A stretch of DNA of 64,000 nucleotides from an uncultured Alphaproteobacteria bacterium. Lineage in GTDB: Bacteria > Pseudomonadota > Alphaproteobacteria > Acetobacterales > Acetobacteraceae. The first letter of the stretch is position 1, and each line of letters starts with the position of its first letter. Positions 1-10,750 of the stretch are shown here, piece by piece. A program made the position numbers and the translations under genes. Below the pieces are notes generated by a model. It saw only the letters and a list, made by a program, of their open reading frames with translations, was not told the origin of the DNA and did not search any database. Location: positions 68,670 through 132,669 of the forward strand of contig CAVRDN010000007.1 of NCBI GenBank assembly GCA_963719675.1, in the 5' to 3' direction.

Positions 1-853
1 ACCTTCGACGTCGGCATCGCCGAGCAGCACGCGGTCACCTTCGCCGCCGGTCTCGCGACCGAGGGGATGAAGCCGTACTGCGCCATCTACTCGACCTTCA
101 TGCAGCGCGCCTTCGACCAGGTGGTGCACGACGTGGCGATCCAGTCGCTGCCGGTGCGCTTCGCCCTCGACCGCGCCGGACCGGTCGGCAACGACGGGGC
201 GACCCATTCGGGCAGCTTCGACATCGCCTACCTGGGCTGTCTGCCGGGCATGGTCATCATGGCGCCGTCCGATGAGGCCGAACTGGTCCATGCCGTCGCG
301 ACCTCGGTCGCCATCAACGACCGGCCGAGCGCGTTTCGCTATCCCCGCGGCGAAGGCACCGGCGTCGCGTTGCCAACCCAGGGCGAGATCCTGCCAGATC
401 GGCAAGGGCCGCGTGGTCCGCGAGGGGCACAGCATCGCCATCCTCTCGCTGGGCCCGCGACTTGGCGACGCGCTGAAGGCCGCCGACGAACTGGCCGCGC
501 GGGGCTTCCCCACCACGGTCGCCGACGCGCGCTTCGCCAAGCCGATCGACACCGCGCTGGTTGAACAACTCGCCCGGCATCACGAGGTGTTGATCACGAT
601 CGAGGAGGGCTCGATCGGCGGTTTCGCCAGTCAGGTGATGCACCATCTGGCCTGGAAGGGGCTGCTGGATCACGGATTGAAGGTGCGGCCGATGGTGATG
701 GCGGACAAATTCATCGACCACAATTCGCAGGCGAAGCAAATGATCGAGGCGGGCCTCTCGGTGCGCGATATCGTCGAAGCCGGCCTCGGCGCGTTCGGCA
801 TCGAGGCACCGGGCGTTCCCGGGCGGCCGGTGCAGGTCGTGACCGGGCGCTAA
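1..853 (+). CDS. dxs: 1-deoxy-D-xylulose-5-phosphate synthase, C-terminal part (5' end outside window; frameshift near 396)
   Basis: [43 protein letters not shown] and RYPRG in ORF 67..564; continues as [10 protein letters not shown]...DARFAKPID...[10 protein letters not shown] in ORF 272..853. Confidence 0.93.
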
Positions 854-856
854 CCG

Positions 857-1642
857 ATGGCGGGCACGAACCTGGGTTTCGAATCTCGCCCTGCCCGTCT
901 GCTGGAGGCCGGTCTGGTGGAAGCCGGTCTGGTGGATGTCGGTCTGCTGAATGCCGGTCTGGGGGATGCCGGTCTGGTGGATGTGGGTGCCGGGCTGGGG
1001 GAAGCCGGTCTGGCGCCGGGGCGTCGGGCGCTGCTCGCGGTGATGGCGGCGGCCGCGCTGTGGCCGGGACGCGGCAAAGCCCAGGGCAGTCAGGTCGCCG
1101 ATGCGCAGCGGGTGGTGAGCGAGTTGTACACCGGCCTGCAAAGCATCATGCGGATGGGCGCCGGGGCGTCGTTCCAGCAGAAATTCAACACCCTCGCCCC
1201 GGTGATCGACCGGGTGTTCGATCTCGAAGCCATACTCCGCACCTCCGTCGGGCTGCGGTGGGCGTCCCTGGGTGAACCCGCGCAGCAGGCCTTGTTCAGC
1301 ATTTTCCGGACCTTCACCATCGCCTCCTACACCGCCAACTTCGGCGAGAACGGCGGCGAACGGTTCGAGGTCCTGCCGGAAACCCGCGCCGCCGCGAGCG
1401 ACCTGATCGTCGAGTCGCGGCTGATCCCCTCGGGCGGGGACCCGGTTCGGCTCGATTACGTGATGCGTCCGGGCACGATGGGCATGCGCATCGTGGACGT
1501 GCTGCTCAACGGCTCGATCAGCCGGGTCGCGGTGCAGCGCTCGGATTTCCGGTCCCTGCTGGCCTCCGGCAACGCCAACGCGCTGATCGAGAGCCTGCGG
1601 CAGAAGGTGGTCACGCTGTCCGGTGGGGCCATGCGGCCGTAA
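857..1642 (+). CDS. hpnM: HpnM / MlaC (Ttg2D) family periplasmic lipid-binding protein
   Basis: Signal-like RRALLAVMAAAALW; LDYVMR...IVDVLLNGSISRVAVQRSDFRSLL motif; lies next to hpnI and hpnJ. Confidence 0.8.
   Translation: MAGTNLGFESRPARLLEAGLVEAGLVDVGLLNAGLGDAGLVDVGAGLGEAGLAPGRRALLAVMAAAALWPGRGKAQGSQVADAQRVVSELYTGLQSIMRMGAGASFQQKFNTLAPVIDRVFDLEAILRTSVGLRWASLGEPAQQALFSIFRTFTIASYTANFGENGGERFEVLPETRAAASDLIVESRLIPSGGDPVRLDYVMRPGTMGMRIVDVLLNGSISRVAVQRSDFRSLLASGNANALIESLRQKVVTLSGGAMRP
895..1015 (+). repeat. 15-bp in-frame tandem repeat (~8 degenerate copies of gccggtctggtggat) in the hpnM N-terminus
   Basis: Visible directly; encodes L-(V/G/L)-(E/D/N)-(A/V)-G repeats. Confidence 0.85.
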
Positions 1643-1710
1643 ATCCGTCCCGGGATGTGAGCGCCCTTCAGGCCGTTCCGCGAGGGTGAGCATCTGATCG
1701 TGGACAAGCG

Positions 1711-3103
1711 ATGTTGAGCCTGGGCCTCGCCGCGCTGACCGCGATCGGCGCGTTGCAGGTTCTGGCCGGCTGGGTCGCGGTGGTTCGGTTCGCCCACGCT
1801 CCGCCGGAGCGTTGCGCCGGCTCTCCGGCGGATCGATTTCCGGGCTCTCCGCCGGAGCGGCCGGCTCTCCGCCGGACATGGCCTGCGGGCCGAGCCGATC
1901 AGTGTCCTCAAACCGCTGTATGGTGACGAACCCCTGCTGGCCGAGGCGCTGGCGACACTGTGCGAGCAGGATTATCCGGCCGGGTGGCAAATCGTGTTCG
2001 GCGTGCACGACGAGGACGACGCCGCCGTGCCGGTGGTGCGCGCGTTGCGGGCCCGCTTCCCCGAGCGGGACATTGTTCTGGTCGCCGATGCGACGGAGCA
2101 CGGCAGCAACCCGAAGGTCGGCAACCTGATCAACATGCTGCCCGCGGCACGGCACGGCGTCCTGGTCATCGCCGATTCCGACGTGCACGCGCGGCCCGAT
2201 TACCTGCGGCGGCTGTCCGAGACACTGGCGCGCCCGAACGTCGGCGTCGCGACCACGCTCTACACCGGCCTGCCGGCGTGGCGCGCGCTGGCCGCCTGCT
2301 CGGCACCACCCAGATCACGCATGGCTTCCTGCCCGGCGCTTTGCTGGCCCGCGCGCTGGGCCGGCGCGACTGTCTGGGCGCGACAATGGCTCTGCGCCGC
2401 GAGACCCTGAGCCGGATCGGGGGGTTCGCGGCACTGAAGGATCATCTCGCGGACGACAATGTGCTCGGCCAGTTGGTCATCGCGGCGGGGCTGGATGTCG
2501 CGCTGGCGCATACGATCGTCGCCACCACCGTGCCGGAACGCACGATCGCGCGCTGTGGCGGCATGAGGAGAGGTGGGCGCGCACGATCCGCACCCTGGCG
2601 CCAGCCGCCTTCGCCGCCGCGGTCCTGCAATATCCGTTGTGCCTGGCGCTGCTGACCGTGCTCGCCGCCGGGGGCGCGATCTGGGCGTGGATTCTGGCGG
2701 CCGGTGCGTTTGGGTTTGCCGTGCCCTCGCGGTCACAGGGATCGACCATGCGTTGGGCCCGATGTCGGAGGGCTTGCATTCCGTTGCCCGCTCTGGCTTT
2801 TGCCGCTTACGGGATCTGCTATCGGCCGCCGAGTGGGTCGTGAGCCACGCCGGACGCCGCGTCGATTGGCGCGGACAGTCGATGCTGGCGGATACGCCCG
2901 GGCGGCCAAATGTTTCCGGGCCAGCCTCCCCCGGGTTGACCCCAACTGGGTTGACCCCAACTGGGCAGACGTCCTTTGGGCCGGCCCCAACCGGGCAGAC
3001 GTCCTTTGGGCCGGCGCCCTTTGGACCGACGCCACCGCATACCGCCCGGGACACTTCGCCGGGCCCCTCATCGAGCCTCAGTAAGGGATCGCACGCGCCA
3101 TGA
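1711..3103 (+). CDS. hpnI: Hopanoid glycosyltransferase HpnI (GT2, ceramide glucosyltransferase-like), split by several frameshifts
   Basis: Motifs spread across frames: ISVLKPLYGDEP, NPKVGNL, IADSDV, LGATMALRRETL..IGGF..LKDHLADDNVLG, RWARTIR, RVDWRG; directly upstream of hpnJ. Confidence 0.85.
2933..3014 (+). repeat. 15-bp x2 and 30-bp x2 tandem repeats in the hpnI 3' extension
   Basis: gggttgaccccaact twice; ccccaa(c/t-variant)gggcagacgtcctttgggccgg unit twice. Confidence 0.8.
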
Positions 3104-4527
3104 TGAAGACCCTGTTCCTGCAACCGCCTTCCTTCGACGGCTTCGACGGCGGCGCCGGCTCACGGTATCAGGCGCGGCGCGAGATCAAGTCGTTCTGGTT
3201 CCCGACCTGGCTGGCGCAACCCGCCGCGCTGGTGCCCGGCAGCAAGCTGATCGACGCCCCGCCGGCCCGCCTGGGCCTGGAGCCGGTGGCGGCGGCCGCG
3301 CGGCAGCATGAGCTGTGCGTGATCCACACCTCGACGCCGTCCTTCGCCTCCGACGTGAAGGTCGCGGCGGCGCTGAAAGACGCCAATCCGTCGCTGAAGA
3401 TCGGCTTCGTCGGCGCCAAGGTGGCGGTGCAGCCGACCGAAAGCCTCGCCAACGGCCTGCCGATCGATTTCGTCGCCCGCAACGAGTTCGACTTCACCAT
3501 CAAGGAAGTCGCCGAGGGCCGCGACTGGAGCACGATCGACGGCATCTCCTACCGCAACAACGCCGGCGCCATCGTGCACAACAAGGATCGCGCGATCCTG
3601 GAGGACATGGACCAGTTGCCGTTCGTGACCGAGGTCTACAAGCGCGACCTGCGGATCGAGGATTACTTCATCGGCTACCTGCTGCACCCCTACGTGTCGC
3701 TGTACACCGGCCGCGGCTGCAAATCGCGCTGCACCTTCTGCCTGTGGCCGCAAACCGTCGGCGGGCACAATTATCGCGTCCGCTCCCCCGGCCATGTCGC
3801 CGAGGAAATCCGCCTGGCAAGGTCGTACTTCCCGCAGGTGCGGGAAATCTTCTTCGACGACGACACCTTCACCGACAACCTGCCGCGCGCCGAGGCGATC
3901 GCCCGCGAACTCGGCAAGATGGGCGTGACGTGGTCGTGCAACGCCAAGGCCAACGTGCCGCGCGAGACGTTGAAGGTGCTGAAGGACAACGGGTTGCGGT
4001 TGTTGCTGGTCGGTTATGAAAGCGGCAACCAGCAGATCCTGCACAACATCAAGAAGGGCATGCGGATCGAGGTCGCGCGCAAGTTTACCCAGGACTGCCA
4101 CGAGCTGGGCATCAAGATCCACGGCACCTTCATCCTCGGCCTGCCCGGCGAGACGAAGGAAACGATCGAGGAAACCATCCGGTTCGCCACCGACATCAAT
4201 CCGCACACCATCCAGGTGTCGTTGGCGGCGCCGTATCCGGGGACCTTTCTGTACAAGCAGGCGATCGAGAACGGCTGGCTCGACGCCGAACACGCCGAAC
4301 TGATCGACGACGAGGGCATCCAGATCGCGCCGCTGTCGTATCCGCATCTGTCGCACACGGAAATCTTCGACAACGTGGAAACGTTCTACAAGCGGTTCTA
4401 TTTCCGCGCGCCGAAGATCGCATCCATCGTTGGCGAGATGGTGCGTAGCCCGCAAATGATGAAGCGGCGGCTGCGCGAGGGCGTGGAGTTCTTCCAGTTC
4501 CTGCGCGAGCGGCACAAGGCGGCGTAA
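3100..4527 (+). CDS. hpnJ: Hopanoid biosynthesis-associated B12-binding radical SAM protein HpnJ
   Basis: Typical N-terminus MKTLFLQPPSFDGFDGGAGSRYQ; CxxxCxxC motif (GCKSRCTFC); intact 475 aa. Confidence 0.95.
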   Translation: MMKTLFLQPPSFDGFDGGAGSRYQARREIKSFWFPTWLAQPAALVPGSKLIDAPPARLGLEPVAAAARQHELCVIHTSTPSFASDVKVAAALKDANPSLKIGFVGAKVAVQPTESLANGLPIDFVARNEFDFTIKEVAEGRDWSTIDGISYRNNAGAIVHNKDRAILEDMDQLPFVTEVYKRDLRIEDYFIGYLLHPYVSLYTGRGCKSRCTFCLWPQTVGGHNYRVRSPGHVAEEIRLARSYFPQVREIFFDDDTFTDNLPRAEAIARELGKMGVTWSCNAKANVPRETLKVLKDNGLRLLLVGYESGNQQILHNIKKGMRIEVARKFTQDCHELGIKIHGTFILGLPGETKETIEETIRFATDINPHTIQVSLAAPYPGTFLYKQAIENGWLDAEHAELIDDEGIQIAPLSYPHLSHTEIFDNVETFYKRFYFRAPKIASIVGEMVRSPQMMKRRLREGVEFFQFLRERHKAA

Positions 4528-4906: not shown

Positions 4907-5722
4907 CTATCCGGCTTTCGCCTTCGCCGCGGCGTCGAGAGCGGCCCAGGTTTGCGGGCCGACGATCGCATCCGCCGCCAGCGCATGCTCCGATTGGAAC
5001 CGCGTGACGGCGACCTCGGTGCCTGGGCCGAAGTCTCCGTCCACCGCCAGGGTAAAGCCCAGCGCGCGAAGCTGGTTTTGCAACGCGGCCACCGCATCGC
5101 CTTTGGAGCCGCGATGCAGCACGGGACGGGCTTCCGAACCGGACGGCGCGCCGGACAGTTGCACGCCCTCAAGCCGGGCAACGGCGGTCTTGGCGGCGGA
5201 TGTATAAGTCCGCCTGTCAGCCAGTCCATTGGTGCCGCCGTTCACCAGTCGCGTGACCGCGATGATGTCGTCACGATCGCAGGCATCGTTGATTTTGTGG
5301 CGCTTCCAGTATTCACACGCGATGCGCAACGAAAGCGTCGGCTCGGCGGCGAGTTGCGGCTGGTTCTCCAGATCCACGCCAAGGGCCTTGCCGTATTCGG
5401 CATAATTCGCGCGCCCGGTGAGTTGAAGAAGCCCGCGCCCCTTGAACCGCGGTCCGTCGCCATCCTTCACGTTCCCCAGGTCCGCGCGACCCTCGTATTC
5501 CTCACCGCTGGCGAATTCTTCCGTCGTGCGATAACCGGCCGACTCCTCACAGGTCTGTCCGAGAAAATGCGCGATCCGCAGTCTTGTTGTGATATCATAA
5601 CTTTGTAGCGTCGCCGCGAGCACCTCGCCGACGGCCGCGATAATTCTGGCCTGGCGCACGCCGTTGTCACCACTGAAGCGCGGAGCGATTTCCTGCATCG
5701 TTTGGCTGTCGACGGGGATCAT
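4907..5722 (-). CDS. Glycoside hydrolase family 19 (chitinase/endolysin-like) with C-terminal peptidoglycan-binding domain
   Basis: RIAHFLGQTCEES, YEGRADLGN..DGDG.RFKGRGLLQLTGRANY, VTRLVNGGTNGLADR; PG_binding_1 pattern L.RGSKG..V..LQ..L...G....VDG.FGP.T..AV..FQ...L.AD.IVGP.TW. Start placed at MIPVDSQ; no signal peptide. Confidence 0.88.
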   Translation of the reverse strand: MIPVDSQTMQEIAPRFSGDNGVRQARIIAAVGEVLAATLQSYDITTRLRIAHFLGQTCEESAGYRTTEEFASGEEYEGRADLGNVKDGDGPRFKGRGLLQLTGRANYAEYGKALGVDLENQPQLAAEPTLSLRIACEYWKRHKINDACDRDDIIAVTRLVNGGTNGLADRRTYTSAAKTAVARLEGVQLSGAPSGSEARPVLHRGSKGDAVAALQNQLRALGFTLAVDGDFGPGTEVAVTRFQSEHALAADAIVGPQTWAALDAAAKAKAG

Positions 5723-6104: not shown

Positions 6105-7802
6105 ATGGCGAACGATCCGGGCTCCGCGGCTCTCGGCGTTTTCGATGCGCTCATGAATCGCGTCAAGCAGGCGCACCCGGTGCGCAGCGACGGCAAGCCG
6201 CTGGGCGGCGGCGTCGTGTACTCAATGATGACGCTCGGGATGCCGGTCGATCCGGCCGACTATCTGCATCCATGGTCGCCAATGGGCGGCGCGTCGGCCT
6301 CCGGCACCGGGGCGGCCGGCGCGGCGCCGGTGATGCCCGCGCCGGCGCCCGCCGCCACCCCCGGCGCGGCGCCGGAGCCCGATCCGAAATTCGCCAAGGC
6401 TCTGGAGTCCGCATATAAAACGGCCCAACTCTGCAACATCATGCTGCAGGTCACCACCGACGGATCGTATCTGGAATATCCGACAGGGCGGCATCTTGAC
6501 TCCGCTTATGATGGCATCCTCGCCGGCATGCAGCCCTTGCCGATGCCGCCGATCGCGCCCGCGGTACAGGCGCAGATCGACGAGTCACAAAAAGTGTTGT
6601 TCGAGCTTGACACCGACGGCAGCATCCTCGGCAAAAGCAAGCTGTACAAGACCTACACCAAGAACGCGGCGGCCTATGCGTTGGCCAAGGCCAACTATGC
6701 GATCGCCAGGCAGCAGGCCAACCCGGAGCTGTGGCCAATGACCTCCGCCACGTATCAACAAGTGGTGGACGACGCTTTCGACACGTTGAAATCCGAGGGC
6801 GCCGACAAGGTGGAGCGCGCGCTCGACATCATCGGCTCGGTCGGCGTCAGCATGCAGGACCACATGATCAAGAAGGCCCGGCAGTTGTTCGATGTTTATA
6901 ACCTCGGACTCGCCGGCGTCCCCGCCCCGGTGCCCTACGCTTTCATCGAGCCGACGGGCTGGTGCGACCCGGACAATGACGATGAGGGGTGGCAGCAGCT
7001 CACGGTCTCATCGAAAGACACACAACATTATGATTCCGCATCGGCCGCGCAGCATGGCAGCTTCGCCTGGGCGGGCAACAAATCATCCACCAGCGGCAGT
7101 TTGGGGTTCAAGGGCTCGTTCTCGGCGAAGGCCGGCGCCAGCACCACTTCATCGGACCACGATCACCACGACGCGCACGACACCTCATCCACCAACGCAT
7201 TCCACGATACGGCGCGCGATCTGGAAATCTCGCTGGAATACATGCTGTGCACGATCAACCGCCCAGGCCTGGTGAGCGACGTGTTTTACATGCGGAACTG
7301 GTATATGGTCGGCCAGCGGGCGAATGCGATCAGCGATGGTACCGAGACCAATCAGGCCAACATCTCCGATCCCGCCAAATTGCCGTTCCTGCCCATGATC
7401 CCGCAGCAATTCCTGGTCGTGCGGAACGTGGTGATCTCCACCAAAACCTGGGGCGACGACAGCGAGGCGCTGAAGTCCGCGTTCGGCGGCGACGAGGGCA
7501 GCAACTCGGCGCGTTCGTTCAGCGGCAATGCCTCCTTCGGCTTCCTCGGCATCGGCGCCTCCGCCAGCCATTCGCAGGACCACGAGAAGGGCCAGGGATC
7601 GAACTGGGAAAGCAACAAAAGTTCCGACCACCTGGGCACCACGTTCGATGGCGAGACGCTCAAGATCCCCGGCGCTCAGATCATCGCCTTCCTCAGCGAT
7701 ATCGTGCCCGCCTGCCCGCCGTTGGACGACCCGGCCTTGCCGGCGCTGAAGGACGACAAGGCGAAAGTGTCGGCCGACACGTTGCAACCCGCGAAGGTCT
7801 GA
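6105..7802 (+). CDS. Uncharacterised 565-aa protein A, paralogue of the next gene; possible beta-pore-forming toxin-like fold
   Basis: GGGAGA RBS before ATG 6105; coding-like codon use; shares an ordered motif series with 7868..9583; two Ser/Gly-rich amphipathic segments. Function is inference. Confidence 0.8.
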   Translation: MANDPGSAALGVFDALMNRVKQAHPVRSDGKPLGGGVVYSMMTLGMPVDPADYLHPWSPMGGASASGTGAAGAAPVMPAPAPAATPGAAPEPDPKFAKALESAYKTAQLCNIMLQVTTDGSYLEYPTGRHLDSAYDGILAGMQPLPMPPIAPAVQAQIDESQKVLFELDTDGSILGKSKLYKTYTKNAAAYALAKANYAIARQQANPELWPMTSATYQQVVDDAFDTLKSEGADKVERALDIIGSVGVSMQDHMIKKARQLFDVYNLGLAGVPAPVPYAFIEPTGWCDPDNDDEGWQQLTVSSKDTQHYDSASAAQHGSFAWAGNKSSTSGSLGFKGSFSAKAGASTTSSDHDHHDAHDTSSTNAFHDTARDLEISLEYMLCTINRPGLVSDVFYMRNWYMVGQRANAISDGTETNQANISDPAKLPFLPMIPQQFLVVRNVVISTKTWGDDSEALKSAFGGDEGSNSARSFSGNASFGFLGIGASASHSQDHEKGQGSNWESNKSSDHLGTTFDGETLKIPGAQIIAFLSDIVPACPPLDDPALPALKDDKAKVSADTLQPAKV

Positions 7803-7867
7803 CGTCCCGCGCGGCGGGCGCGCGGCCGCCGCGGACCTAGCACGCCGATCGTCCCGACAGGTGGAAC

Positions 7868-9583
7868 ATGCCGGTCAACACCACCGATCTGATGCAGAAC
7901 ATCTACGATCTGTTCACCGGCATTTATGCCGCCTCGAACGGAGCCGGCGCCGCGCTCGCGTTCGAGCGACTGGGCGTGCCGATCTCGACCTCGATGTTCA
8001 GGATCAATCCAGCTGACACGGCGCTTTCGCCGGCACTGGCGGTGGAGCGGCTGTCGGAAATCGCCGGAGCGGTGATGCAGTTGCAAGGCGGCTCGGTCTA
8101 CCGCTCCAACCGCACGGTGGAAGCGGTGACCGAGTTGATGCTGGGGCAATCGATGCCGGCGACGCCCGAGGTCATGGCCGCCCTCGGCGCGGCCAGGACC
8201 GCCGACAATCAGCGTTTCGACGTCTCGCTTGGATCGCTGGAGGGCGACTTCAGGTTCCATCCCAGCTATGCCAGCCCGCCGGACTGGTACGATCCGGCGG
8301 CGGCGATCTGGACGCCGCACAAGGTCGATGAGCACGCCGCCGGGTTGTCGGCGACGCAGGGAGGCGGCTCGCCCACGCGGCAGGCTCCGGTGCCCTCGCC
8401 CGCGCCCCCGCCCGTGCCCGCGCCCGTGCCCCCGCCCGTGCCCCCGGTGGCGGCGCATCCGCCGGTGATGATGGGGCCGCTGTTATGGCACGTGGTGGCG
8501 GCCGAGGCCCGGCCCGCGCTGCAGGCGTCAGGGCCCCGTGAGAGCGCCATGATCGCGATGGCGCAGGCGAAGCCGCCCGGCGCCGCGGCCGCGACGATGC
8601 ATGCCCCGGCCATGCACGCACCGGCCATGGTAGTGGCGCACGCCCCGATTGTCCCGCACGCCCCGGTGACGGCGCATCCGCCGGTCGCCGTGCATCCCCC
8701 GATGACGATGATCGCGCACCTTCCGCCGAAGCCGCCCGGCGCGGTCGTCGCCGTCCACCCGACGGGCAAGCCGTCGCTCCCGGTCGCCGCGGCCGTCCAT
8801 CCTCCGATCATGGTCATGCATCCGGCCGCCTTCGCCGCCACATCGGCGATGCAACTGCGCCCGCTGTTGGTGGCGCAAGCGGCCGCGCAGGTGAGCGCGG
8901 CGGCAACGACCCGGCAGGTCAGCACCAGCAGCCTGGACATCAGTTTCGAACATTGCGTGGTCACGCTCAACCGGCCGTGGTTCCCGCAGACCTTCACCAT
9001 GTTGCGCGACTGGTTCTTGCCCGGCTATGGGCGCGGGGCCATTTCCACTGGCAAGGCCGACGGCGACACCGGGCTGATGCCTTTGCTGCCGAGCGGTTTC
9101 GTGGCGGTCCGCAACCTGGTCATCACCGCGCAATGGAGCGAGGCCGACCTGGCAACGGTGCAGGGTTCGGCTTCGTTCGGTCCGTTCTCGCTACTGGGTC
9201 GCAGCTTCGACGCGAAGACCGGCACGCTGAGCGCCCCCGGCATGCAAATCATCGGCTGGTTCTGCGAAGCGCTCCCCGTGCTCCCGCCGTTGTCCGATCC
9301 CGCGCTCGCGGCGGCGGTTCCCCCAGTGGACGTTCCGCGCCGACGTTCCGCGGGCGTCCCCCCGGCGGGCGTCCCCAGGTGGGCGTTCCCGCGGCGGGCG
9401 TTTCCCCGCGGGCATTTCCCCGCCTCCGTGGGCGTTCCCGCGCCGCCGGCCGCGAGCCCGGCACCGCCCGGCGGGCCCGCCGGGTCCCGCGGCAGGCCCG
9501 TCATGACCGATGGGCCAGCGCCGTCCAGACGGGGCAACTTCGCGCGGACTTCACGAATTCCACTTCATGGTGAGCAGCGATGA
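7868..9583 (+). CDS. Uncharacterised protein B, paralogue of 6105..7802 with a Pro/Ala/His-rich insertion; 3' end uncertain
   Basis: AGGTGG RBS; motifs ISFEHCVVTLNRPW, LMPLLPSGFVAVRNLVI, PGMQIIGWF..LPVLPPLSDPAL; the tail after ~9320 is repetitive and may be frameshifted. Confidence 0.78.
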   Translation: MPVNTTDLMQNIYDLFTGIYAASNGAGAALAFERLGVPISTSMFRINPADTALSPALAVERLSEIAGAVMQLQGGSVYRSNRTVEAVTELMLGQSMPATPEVMAALGAARTADNQRFDVSLGSLEGDFRFHPSYASPPDWYDPAAAIWTPHKVDEHAAGLSATQGGGSPTRQAPVPSPAPPPVPAPVPPPVPPVAAHPPVMMGPLLWHVVAAEARPALQASGPRESAMIAMAQAKPPGAAAATMHAPAMHAPAMVVAHAPIVPHAPVTAHPPVAVHPPMTMIAHLPPKPPGAVVAVHPTGKPSLPVAAAVHPPIMVMHPAAFAATSAMQLRPLLVAQAAAQVSAAATTRQVSTSSLDISFEHCVVTLNRPWFPQTFTMLRDWFLPGYGRGAISTGKADGDTGLMPLLPSGFVAVRNLVITAQWSEADLATVQGSASFGPFSLLGRSFDAKTGTLSAPGMQIIGWFCEALPVLPPLSDPALAAAVPPVDVPRRRSAGVPPAGVPRWAFPRRAFPRGHFPASVGVPAPPAASPAPPGGPAGSRGRPVMTDGPAPSRRGNFARTSRIPLHGEQR

Positions 9584-10101
9584 CAACTCATGTGACTTTG
9601 AGCAAAATCGACCTCGGAAGTATTCCGGGACTGGACCTTCCGACTGTCGATCCGGGCAGCAACGCCCTGTTCGACAACGATGCGAAAGTCTGCCGGATCA
9701 TTTCCGACGATGAGCTGCACGCCGCGTATGTCGATGACAACATCGACACATTCCAGTTGCAGAACGTGAACCTGCTGACACTCGACGTCGACAACCAATT
9801 CGTCACGCTCACCTATGCCAACGGTGCCGGCATCGATATGCTGCTTGGCTGGATCGATTACGCGGCTCCCCCGCGAACCACCCAATATGGGCAGACGGCC
9901 GGGATCATCTACCCGATCGATGCCAATGGAAATCCGTTGCTGAATGCCACCAATACGCCAAATCTCGTCGCTATCCGCAAATGGTACGCCGCCGAGGCCA
10001 GGAGGGTGAATGATCAACGGGTCGAGATCGCCGAGGTCGTCCACTCGTTCGCTGAAATCATCGGTACGCTTGGGAACGCCGCCGAACATACGGGCGGCTG
10101 A
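9580..10101 (+). CDS. Hypothetical protein (173 aa)
   Basis: ATGA overlap with the upstream ORF; globular-protein composition; visibly less GC-rich codon use. Confidence 0.75.
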   Translation: MTTHVTLSKIDLGSIPGLDLPTVDPGSNALFDNDAKVCRIISDDELHAAYVDDNIDTFQLQNVNLLTLDVDNQFVTLTYANGAGIDMLLGWIDYAAPPRTTQYGQTAGIIYPIDANGNPLLNATNTPNLVAIRKWYAAEARRVNDQRVEIAEVVHSFAEIIGTLGNAAEHTGG

Positions 10102-10103
10102 CG

Positions 10104-10589
10104 ATGCCGGTCGAAATTGGTGCTCCGGAACAAGCGAGCTACGATCTGCGTGGCCGGACCCTGGCCGACGTGGCGGCGGCCGTCGCGTTGCAAGACGAGG
10201 CAGCGAAAACCGAATGGTGGCCGCGCTTTACCTATACCACCTCCGGCGACCTGATTACGGCGGTTGACGTCACCGTGAAGTTGCGCGTGACGATGCCGGC
10301 GTGGCCCAACGCCAAGACCGCGCCGGATGCGGAGCAGCGCGCCTGGGCCCAATTCCTGGCGGCGCTGACGGCGCACGAGCAGGGTCATGTCGATCTGGTC
10401 AACCAGTACTTCGCGGACATCGAGACCCGGCTGGTGGGTCAGTCGCCCGATGCGGCGAAGCGGCTGTGGGCCGAAAACTCCACTGCTTTGCAGGCCGCGA
10501 GCGACTCTTACGACAGCGATACAGATCATGGGCGCAAGCAGGGCACGGTGATCGATCTCACGCCGGCCGGGTCTCAGGACTCGCCATGA
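10104..10589 (+). CDS. DUF922-like zinc-dependent metalloprotease (HExxH)
   Basis: SYDLRG.TL, VTMP.W, W..FLAAL..HEQGH, YD..TDHG..QG, which is the pattern I recall for DUF922; 2 bp after the previous stop. Confidence 0.72.
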   Translation: MPVEIGAPEQASYDLRGRTLADVAAAVALQDEAAKTEWWPRFTYTTSGDLITAVDVTVKLRVTMPAWPNAKTAPDAEQRAWAQFLAALTAHEQGHVDLVNQYFADIETRLVGQSPDAAKRLWAENSTALQAASDSYDSDTDHGRKQGTVIDLTPAGSQDSP

Positions 10590-10750
10590 ACGGGCCTGCC
10601 GTAACCGCGGACCCCGGCTATGATCGCGACTACGATATGGCGAAGGCCAACCTTCTGATGCGCGTACCAAAATCTTTGACGGCGGCCCAGGCCGGCGTGG
10701 ATGCGCACGACAGCGCGAGCCGGAAGCGGGCCGCGTCCACGATCGCCTGA
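10586..10750 (+). CDS. Small hypothetical protein or gene remnant (54 aa)
   Basis: ATGA overlap with the stop of the DUF922-like gene. Confidence 0.35.
   Translation: MNGPAVTADPGYDRDYDMAKANLLMRVPKSLTAAQAGVDAHDSASRKRAASTIA

What the first reader, a model, noticed from the sequence alone, without database searches (positions are those of the whole stretch)
6105..10750. Candidate undescribed two-component pore-forming toxin operon: paralogous pair plus accessory protein and metalloprotease
Seen: two adjacent ~570-aa ORFs with no family I recognise share an ordered motif series. These are LG(M/V)P; Y..P.(G/D)W.DP...W; IS(L/F)E...T(I/L)NRP; R(N/D)W...G...AIS.G; P..P..F..VRN.VI...W; ASFG; FD..T..PG.QII..; P..PPL.DPAL. 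Protein A has two Ser/Thr/Gly-rich segments with alternating hydrophobic residues (SGSLGFKGSFSAKAGAS near 7090-7145; SFSGNASFGFLGIGASASHS near 7515-7575) inserted between conserved beta-like strands. Neither protein has a signal peptide. Three more ORFs follow with overlaps or 2-bp gaps. Known: two membrane-inserting hairpins flanking a central sheet is the MACPF/CDC/gasdermin plan, and the CDC-like toxins of Bacteroidota act as protease-activated pairs. Inference: A is the pore former, B is a non-inserting partner, and the HExxH protease may activate them.
Basis: partly seen in the sequence, partly recalled or inferred. Interest (0 to 1): 0.82.

Follow-up and report, generated by a model that had tools for sequence, protein, structure and literature searches.

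The report
Unnamed giant-pore toxin with stub partner
Two neighbouring genes of an unnamed, widespread bacterial family encode a protein predicted to assemble into an unusually tall, perforin-like membrane pore and a related partner that has lost the pore-forming arms, and together they likely act as a two-part weapon against other microbes.

Summary
A (6105-7802) and B (7868-9583) are paralogues with no Pfam, NCBIfam, PHROGs or PADLOC family. They are linked in 58 of 59 non-redundant loci from about ten phyla. Coevolution among A relatives gives four antiparallel ladders, β1-β2-β3-β4, continuing from the core sheet through both Ser/Gly-rich segments. The strongest joins β4 to β1, the two edges of the sheet (score 11.7; tree-simulated null maximum 3.9), which is best read as a contact between subunits. 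The registers give a shift of 2 residues per subunit, the S=n/2 geometry of MACPF/CDC giant barrels. All four arms are about 12 residues longer than in solo relatives, so the barrel would be about 40 Å taller. B keeps the core but lacks hairpin 1, most of hairpin 2 and a helical hairpin, so it cannot build this barrel. DUF922, ORF C and GH19 are not fixed partners (2, 2, 1 of 74 clusters). Instead, various small proteases (21/49) and peptidoglycan-acting proteins (15/49) lie beside the pair. Homology to MACPF, CDC or gasdermin, A-B binding, protease activation and the target are not shown. Verdict: a new family working like giant β-barrel pores.

The parts
6105..7802 (+). Gene A, 565 aa: predicted barrel-forming subunit, long-hairpin clade
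6540..6914 (+). A residues ~146-270: long helical hairpin, present in A and solo relatives, about 100 residues shorter in B; role unknown
   Evidence: AF2 helices at pLDDT 76-92; segment 137-155 aa in A versus 31-56 aa in B
6987..7016 (+). Core strand β1 (residues 295-304)
   Evidence: DSSP E297-302; ladder with β2 at register sum 676
7017..7217 (+). Hairpin 1 (residues ~305-371, tip ~338), Ser/Thr/Gly-rich, disordered in the monomer model
   Evidence: arm-arm ladder sum 676, score 6.2-6.7; arms 41/50 aa versus 29/38 in short relatives
7218..7259 (+). Core strand β2 (372-385), ISLE...TINRP motif
7395..7442 (+). Core strand β3 (431-446)
   Evidence: sum 819 with β2; 962-963 with β4
7449..7649 (+). 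Hairpin 2 (residues ~449-515, hydrophobic tip 476-483)
   Evidence: arm ladder sum 963; its second arm pairs with the first arm of hairpin 1 at sum 818, score 11.7
7650..7703 (+). Core strand β4 (516-533) with invariant G523 and Q525
7868..9583 (+). Gene B, 571 aa: paralogue keeping the core, without full hairpins; likely non-inserting partner
8333..8902 (+). Pro/Ala-rich linker of B in place of hairpin 1 (36-310 aa between anchors in 55 B proteins)
9134..9223 (+). Stub of hairpin 2 in B; the GPFSL tip is kept and the arms are short (about 39 aa versus 55 and 79-84)
9580..10101 (+). ORF C, 173 aa, no family; variable neighbour, seen with DUF922 in one other cluster (L027/L028)
10104..10589 (+). 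ORF D, DUF922 predicted zincin, HEQGH at 10374-10388; one of several protease types found beside the pair
   Evidence: Pfam E 5e-24; zincin prediction in PMC3650047 passages
10586..10750 (+). ORF E, 54 aa, unsupported; may not be a gene
4907..5722 (-). Divergent GH19 + PG_binding_1 endolysin-like gene; the GH19 type is unique to this locus, the peptidoglycan-enzyme theme recurs

Best explanation
A is predicted to polymerise edge to edge into a ring whose two long hairpins per subunit would unfold into a tall, perforin-type β-barrel pore, while B, which keeps the core sheet but lacks the arms, likely serves as the anchoring platform, and the pair would be released from the producer to attack other bacteria together with the small enzymes encoded beside it. 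Steps, with my odds: (1) four-strand-per-subunit oligomeric barrel, inferred from coevolution with controls, ~0.9; (2) it inserts into a membrane through the two short hydrophobic tips, inferred, ~0.85; (3) B works with A without joining the barrel wall: linkage and loss of arms are shown, partnership is inferred, ~0.75, with platform favoured over inhibitor about 3:2; (4) release by lysis or an injection system, since there is no signal peptide, inferred; (5) bacterial target, inferred from neighbours, ~0.45; (6) the neighbouring protease is activator or cargo, untested; DUF922 as activator ~0.3.
For: Ladders in 264 long-clade sequences (Neff 156): arm pairs β1-β2 sum 676 (6.7), β2-β3 819 (4.8), β3-β4 963 (4.6), β4-β1 818 (11.7). 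Non-adjacent pairs reach 2.4 and 1.7, parallel scans at most 3.5; the 818 ladder came first in 4 of 4 half-samples. Null of independent columns evolved on the tree: 162 scans, maximum 3.9, against 6.2, 4.8, 4.3, 11.7 observed. MI-APC on 82 paired loci again gave 676, 819, 818. The arm registers continue those of the core strands, which AF2 models as strands. Walking round the four registers returns a-2: S=n/2, tilt 19.7°, the geometry reported for pleurotolysin and Mpf2Ba1 pores (PMC4318580 and PMC10344926 passages). Both hairpins lengthen together and on both arms: 67/55 aa in short relatives, 90-91/79-84 in 14 long ones. Language-model neighbours with a family are CDC and MACPF clusters at 0.85-0.86 for two queries (a lead only). 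B follows or precedes A in 58 of 59 clusters. B carries a C-terminal PG_binding_1 domain in L035, L038, L134 and L121, about two independent cases. Peptidoglycan hydrolases or binders lie within 2 kb in 15 of 49 clusters and proteases in 21 of 49; 43 of 47 protease ORFs are on the same strand, 35 within 300 nt. Distribution is patchy: 1 of 60 same-genus genomes.
Against: No sequence link to any characterised pore former (one MACPF protein versus the short-clade profile gave probability 0.8%). A β4-β1 ladder fits an open sheet or filament as well as a ring. A neighbouring diagonal (816, score 7.7) would give S=n. The closing ladder is not resolved in the short clade (Neff 53; 2.9, below a non-adjacent 3.6). 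No A-B coevolution ladder stood out in 82 pairs (low power). 20 of 49 clusters have neither a recognised protease nor a peptidoglycan protein nearby. 7 of the 21 protease cases rest on an unnamed family with only a Q..CG motif. Neighbour profiles were seeded from these same loci. The long/short split is probably a single evolutionary event. L024 has A without B. The export route is unknown.
Confidence: 0.5

Rival explanations
1. Same pore, inward use: A is a gasdermin-like suicide or lysis protein. The neighbouring protease frees it inside the producer, it opens the cell's own membrane and, like a holin, lets the neighbouring endolysin out (abortive infection or programmed lysis).
For: No signal peptides in A, B or the neighbouring enzymes by a crude rule; caspase-like and papain-like neighbours; endolysin-type neighbours mostly without a holin-like gene (3 of 74 clusters have one); patchy spread.
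Against: Neighbour proteases are mostly 160-330 aa, too short for sensor domains; no PADLOC match for 53 members; no N-terminal Cys in 55 A proteins; a barrel reaching about 105 Å below the core and peptidoglycan-binding domains on B make little sense in the cytoplasm (inference).
Confidence: 0.2
2. B is not a platform but a cap or chaperone: it binds an edge strand of A and stops polymerisation until its Pro-rich linker is cut or it is stripped off.
For: B keeps both edge strands but no arms; it is almost always present (58/59); A without a signal peptide would threaten its producer; B's linker is long, variable and low in complexity.
Against: PG-binding fusions on B and its faster divergence (mean column identity 19% versus 47%) suit a targeting role; the hydrophobic tip of hairpin 2 is conserved in B.
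Confidence: 0.25
3. Exported pore toxin aimed at eukaryotic grazers or hosts (protists, fungi, nematodes, insects); the endolysin and holin-like neighbours serve only to release it.
For: Bacterial MACPF and pyroptolysin proteins of environmental bacteria are insecticidal; GH108 plus a hydrophobic holin-like gene beside the pair in L007, L037, L060; eCIS marker Pvc16_N in 24 of 52 family-bearing genomes versus 45 of 260 in three comparison sets.
Against: No lectin or sterol-binding domain found on A or B; the only named fusion binds peptidoglycan; the window's genome has no Pvc16_N match (87% complete); kin are not independent, so the enrichment is a lead.
Confidence: 0.2
4. A builds a non-lytic β-sheet polymer (tube, filament or secretion conduit) rather than a toxin pore.
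For: Edge-to-edge ladders do not prove a closed ring; most arm positions are small polar residues (mean S/T/G/N/Q share 0.50-0.55).
Against: Conserved alternating hydrophobic tips on both hairpins; S=n/2 register; conflict-type neighbours; patchy spread.
Confidence: 0.08
5. An enzyme or other soluble non-pore fold in which the Ser/Gly segments are plain linkers.
For: Segments are disordered in the AF2 monomer (pLDDT under 50).
Against: Quantised lengths and in-register coevolution across the segments are not linker behaviour.
Confidence: 0.02

Closest known systems
MACPF pore formers (pleurotolysin B, Mpf2Ba1, perforin, complement C9)
   Same: Four-stranded antiparallel core with two inserted hairpins, four strands per subunit, S=n/2 register (papers); two-part systems exist.
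   Different: No PF01823 match, no signature motif, no helix-turn-helix after β4 in the model, hairpins not modelled as helical bundles, an extra ~100-residue helical hairpin before β1, no C-terminal binding domain.
CDC-like (CDCL) two-component toxins of Bacteroidota
   Same: One subunit builds the barrel and a related one acts as platform; protease activation (PMC11952106 Introduction and passages) is the model for B and D here.
   Different: No PF01289 match or CDC motif. The CDCL platform has an extra fourth domain, whereas B has lost its arms and helical hairpin. Proteases here are varied and gene-linked, not C11-type.
Gasdermins (bacterial bGSDM; fungal RCD-1-1/RCD-1-2 pair, recalled)
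   Same: Signal-less, two hairpins from loops disordered in the monomer, four strands per subunit, protease neighbours.
   Different: bGSDM fingers are 17-18 aa (PMC10153256) against arms of about 33 aa below the core here; no N-terminal palmitoylated Cys; A is 565 aa with no separate C-terminal inhibitory piece; B cannot alternate with A in the barrel.
Pyroptolysins (gasdermin-CDC chimeras, bioRxiv 10.64898/2026.10.05.756811)
   Same: Gasdermin-type pore used as an outward toxin by environmental bacteria (abstract and opening text).
   Different: They carry a CDC-like C-terminal β-sandwich; A ends about 30 residues after β4 and comes with a paralogous partner.
Aerolysin-type β-pore formers
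   Same: Ser/Thr-rich amphipathic strands.
   Different: One hairpin per subunit (established knowledge); here two hairpins in a four-strand cycle.

Membership tests
MACPF | Four-stranded antiparallel core with two hairpin insertions, four strands per subunit | tested here: met
   Coevolution ladders 676/819/963/818 with null; AF2 strands. Predicted, not observed.
MACPF | Giant-barrel shear S=n/2 | tested here: inconclusive
   Best registers give 2 residues per subunit (19.7°); the 816 diagonal would give S=n.
MACPF | Pfam PF01823 match | tested here: not met
   None for A, B (E up to 1) or 45 relatives (E up to 0.1).
MACPF | Signature Y/W-G-T/S-H..GG (motif recalled) | tested here: not met
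   0 of 113, 0 of 39, 0 of 55, 0 of 55.
MACPF | Hairpins stored as helical bundles; helix-turn-helix after β4 | tested here: inconclusive
   Segments at pLDDT under 50 apart from helix 452-460; no helix pair after β4 in the model.
MACPF / CDC / gasdermin | Structural superposition on solved members | tested here: inconclusive
   the core was never folded alone and the B model is poor.
CDC / CDCL | PF01289 match or the short CDC motif (recalled as [YF][YF]GR) | tested here: not met
   only a 0.86 language-model lead.
CDC / CDCL | C-terminal membrane-binding domain 4 on the platform subunit | tested here: not met
   B ends after the core with a low-complexity tail; a minority carry PG_binding_1 instead.
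CDCL | Proteolytic activation, platform plus barrel heteromer | not testable with these tools
   Needs biochemistry.
Bacterial gasdermin | N-terminal palmitoylated cysteine | tested here: not met
   0 of 55 A, 1 of 55 B with Cys in the first 12 residues.
Bacterial gasdermin | Profile match to gasdermin models | tested here: not met
   No Pfam, NCBIfam or PADLOC hit; no bGSDM profile could be obtained for a profile-profile test.
Bacterial gasdermin | Cleavable C-terminal inhibitory peptide | not testable with these tools
   A has a ~20-residue tail after the conserved PxxPPxxDP; role unknown.
Aerolysin-type β-PFT | One hairpin per subunit | tested here: not met
   Two hairpins in a four-strand cycle.
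DUF922 zincin (ORF D) | PF06037 match and HExxH | tested here: met
   E 5e-24, above cut-off; HEQGH. Protease activity is a prediction.

The most novel reading that the evidence does not exclude
A fourth lineage of giant β-barrel pore formers, beside MACPF, CDC and gasdermin, in which one clade lengthened all four barrel strands by about 12 residues and gained an armless paralogue as a wall-anchored platform. The result is a bacterial counterpart of complement plus lysozyme and perforin plus granzyme: a ~13-16 nm conduit that reaches through the target's envelope and admits interchangeable small enzymes (lysozymes, caspase-like, papain-like and zinc proteases) encoded beside it. A third clade seems to have formed tandem pairs independently.
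Probability: 0.25. Interest if true: 0.92.

Novelty: new variant of a known kind. Interest (0 to 1): 0.8.

Why it matters
Giant β-barrel pores are known from three families whose relationship is debated. This is an unnamed family (1,074 representatives at 50% identity) that is predicted to use the same barrel plan without detectable kinship, so one structure would bear on whether the plan arose once or several times. It offers a natural pair of short and long barrels differing by a fixed number of residues, an armless partner, and cultured strains that carry it (Silvimonas, Kitasatospora, Leptolyngbya, Paraburkholderia; short type in Bacillus). It may be a common, unnoticed weapon of soil bacteria and a new nanopore scaffold.

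Full report
OBSERVATION. The five ORFs, overlaps and motifs are in the sequence as described. A (565 aa) and B (571 aa) have no Pfam family at E up to 1 and no PHROGs match; A and 52 relatives have no shared NCBIfam family and no PADLOC match. D is DUF922 (E 5e-24), and the divergent gene at 4907-5722 is GH19 plus PG_binding_1. A and B align at E 5e-17 over the C-terminal core.

FAMILY. A has 203 relatives among 7,996 scored candidates, B has 53 among 7,994, and a profile of A finds 1,074 representatives at 50% identity. The 50 genome loci come, by their record titles, from about ten phyla, among them Pseudomonadota, Acidobacteriota, Cyanobacteria, Actinomycetota, Chloroflexota and Verrucomicrobiota. 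Shorter solo relatives occur in Bacillus inaquosorum and B. subtilis and in Streptomyces. All names given by sources are 'hypothetical protein'. The own genome has one A and one B; 1 of 60 same-genus genomes has a family member, a distant tandem pair next to an M15 peptidase with a PG-binding domain.

ANATOMY OF A. AF2 (113 rows; pLDDT 69, pTM 0.67) gives long strands at 297-302, 374-385, 431-445 and 518-533, a helical hairpin at about 150-265, and disorder at 307-364, 463-476 and 484-509. Across 53 aligned members the two disordered inserts have quantised lengths: 67 and 55 residues between anchors in most of 38 short members, 90-91 and 79-84 in 14 long ones. The gain falls on both arms: 29/38 to 41/50, and 25/30 to 35-39/44. 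Each insert has a conserved alternating hydrophobic tip flanked by small polar residues. On a tree of core columns the long type is one clade (support 0.96), so this is probably one event.

COEVOLUTION, THE KEY RESULT. Mean-field DCA on 344 family rows (Neff 226) showed antiparallel ladders. Restricted to 264 long-clade rows (Neff 156), the core strands pair at register sums 676, 819 and 962, and the arms continue them at 676 (score 6.7), 819 (4.8) and 963 (4.6). The strongest ladder joins the first arm of hairpin 1 to the second arm of hairpin 2 at 818 (11.7; N325-H493, W322-G496, S330-S488, S313-K505), with signal at both odd and even positions. Non-adjacent arm pairs reach 2.4 and 1.7, parallel scans 3.5. 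Four half-samples all returned 818. On 219 de-duplicated rows the scores were 6.2, 4.8, 4.3 and 11.7, against a maximum of 3.9 in 162 scans of columns evolved independently on the same tree. MI-APC on 82 loci reproduced 676, 819 and 818. β1 and β4 are the two edges of the sheet, and a closed four-stranded barrel 30 residues long within one chain is not a plausible geometry (my knowledge), so I read this as a contact between subunits. Going round the registers returns residue a-2, i.e. S=n/2 and a tilt of 19.7°, the value reported for pleurotolysin and Mpf2Ba1 pores (passages). Caveats: the 816 diagonal (7.7) would give S=n; an open sheet or filament gives the same contacts; in 59 short members (Neff 53) β2-β3 and β3-β4 appear but the closing ladder does not. 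Arms reach about 105 Å below the core and 134-158 Å with it, about 38 Å more than in short members; the CDCL pore is about 105 Å tall in all.

B. Against the short-member profile B aligns end to end (probability 100, E 2.4e-39). It lacks about 100 residues of the helical hairpin, has a Pro/Ala-rich linker of 36-310 residues in place of hairpin 1, and keeps a stub of hairpin 2 (about 39 residues) with the GPFSL tip. It therefore cannot supply strands to A's barrel (inference). B proteins form one clade (0.99) that the tree places among short members, not beside A (midpoint root, no clade test). Tandem pairs in a third clade (L059, L063, L064) look independent, and one partner in L059 also has a hairpin replaced by a long insert.

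NEIGHBOURS. 121 loci with A collapse to 74 clusters at 80% identity. B lies within 1.5 kb on the same strand in 58 of 59 clusters with enough flank (15 dropped; L024 is the exception). C and DUF922 occur in 2 of 74 clusters and GH19 in 1. In 49 clusters with 2 kb on both sides (25 dropped), 21 have a protease-like gene (C70, caspase-like C14, M12-like, DUF922, and in 7 cases an unnamed family with a Q..CG motif), 15 have a peptidoglycan hydrolase or binder (GH108, GH25, a T4-lysozyme-like family, CHAP, GH19, PG_binding_1), and 20 have neither. These profiles were seeded from the same loci; in the own genome the protease profiles hit nothing outside the locus. 43 of 47 protease ORFs are co-directional and 35 lie within 300 nt (all loci, kin included). 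B is fused to PG_binding_1 in four loci, about two independent cases. A hydrophobic holin-like gene accompanies GH108 in 3 clusters. The eCIS marker Pvc16_N is in 24 of 52 carrier genomes against 10 of 60, 13 of 100 and 22 of 100 in comparison sets; the own genome lacks it but has T6SS sheath genes. This is a lead only.

MECHANISM. Shown by calls: paralogy, linkage, loss of arms in B, concerted arm lengthening, the four ladders, the varied enzyme neighbours. Inferred: ring closure and membrane insertion (~0.85), B as partner (~0.75; platform over cap about 3:2), outward use against bacteria (~0.45), protease as activator or cargo (untested). The main rivals are inward lysis, B as inhibitor, and a eukaryotic target.

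COMPARISON. It is predicted to work like MACPF/CDC/gasdermin pores and, in division of labour, like the CDCL toxins (Introduction and passages of PMC11952106). It is not filed in any of them: profile matches, recalled signature motifs and the gasdermin N-terminal cysteine were tested and not met, and fold comparison was inconclusive. Language-model neighbours at 0.85-0.86 were CDC and MACPF clusters, below the tool's 0.9 mark. Papers seen: pyroptolysin preprint (abstract, opening text and outline); PMC8986115, PMC10153256, PMC3650047, PMC4318580, PMC10344926 (passages); PMC11952106 (passages and Introduction). Others were seen as search listings only. No description of this family appeared; patents, most subscription papers and supplements were not searched.

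VERDICT. A real, widespread, unnamed family with controlled sequence evidence for a giant four-strand-per-subunit β-barrel, a taller variant of it, and an armless partner. New variant of a known kind; interest 0.8.

Noticed in passing
window 67-853 and 1960-2655: A transketolase-domain gene and a Glyco_transf_21 gene each split across frames with complementary Pfam halves, suggesting indel errors in this assembly; B's repeat-rich tail may be affected too.
   Followed up: partly
L059 (G357:C120) 265-4394: Same-genus genome has a distant tandem pair of this superfamily; the second gene has hairpin 2 replaced by a ~128-residue Pro/Ala-rich insert, followed by an M15 peptidase with PG-binding domain; looks like an independent origin of the armless-partner design.
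   Followed up: partly
L005:7105-7974, L011, L023, L025, L039, L080, L116: Unnamed ~290-aa family directly beside the pair in 7 of 74 clusters, none of them with a recognised protease gene; no Pfam match.
   Followed up: partly
L002:9390-10385, L018, L029, L043, L066, L070, L091, L099, L122: Unnamed ~300-aa family with a conserved Q..N.CG motif, probably a papain-clan protease (recalled motif), with no Pfam, NCBIfam or PHROGs match.
   Followed up: partly
L017:11254-12057, L020, L035, L038, L041, L047, L121: Unnamed lysozyme-like family (EG..Y.D motif; weak PHROG endolysin match) fused to TIG or hemopexin repeats, beside the pair.
   Followed up: partly
L015:4782-5321, L027/L028:11150-11669; L009, L036, L077: Two further unnamed neighbour families (~170 aa and ~210 aa), 3 clusters each.
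   Followed up: no
L064 (NZ_CP021807) and L062 (NZ_CP133483): Short-type members on plasmids: a tandem pair near five TIR-domain genes in Sinorhizobium meliloti, and a solo gene next to an OmpA-domain protein and a restriction-modification set in Acuticoccus.
   Followed up: no
L015, L040, L068, L069, L071, L081, L098-L100: A or B split over two or more ORFs in several loci (frameshifts or assembly errors); left as separate pieces.
   Followed up: no
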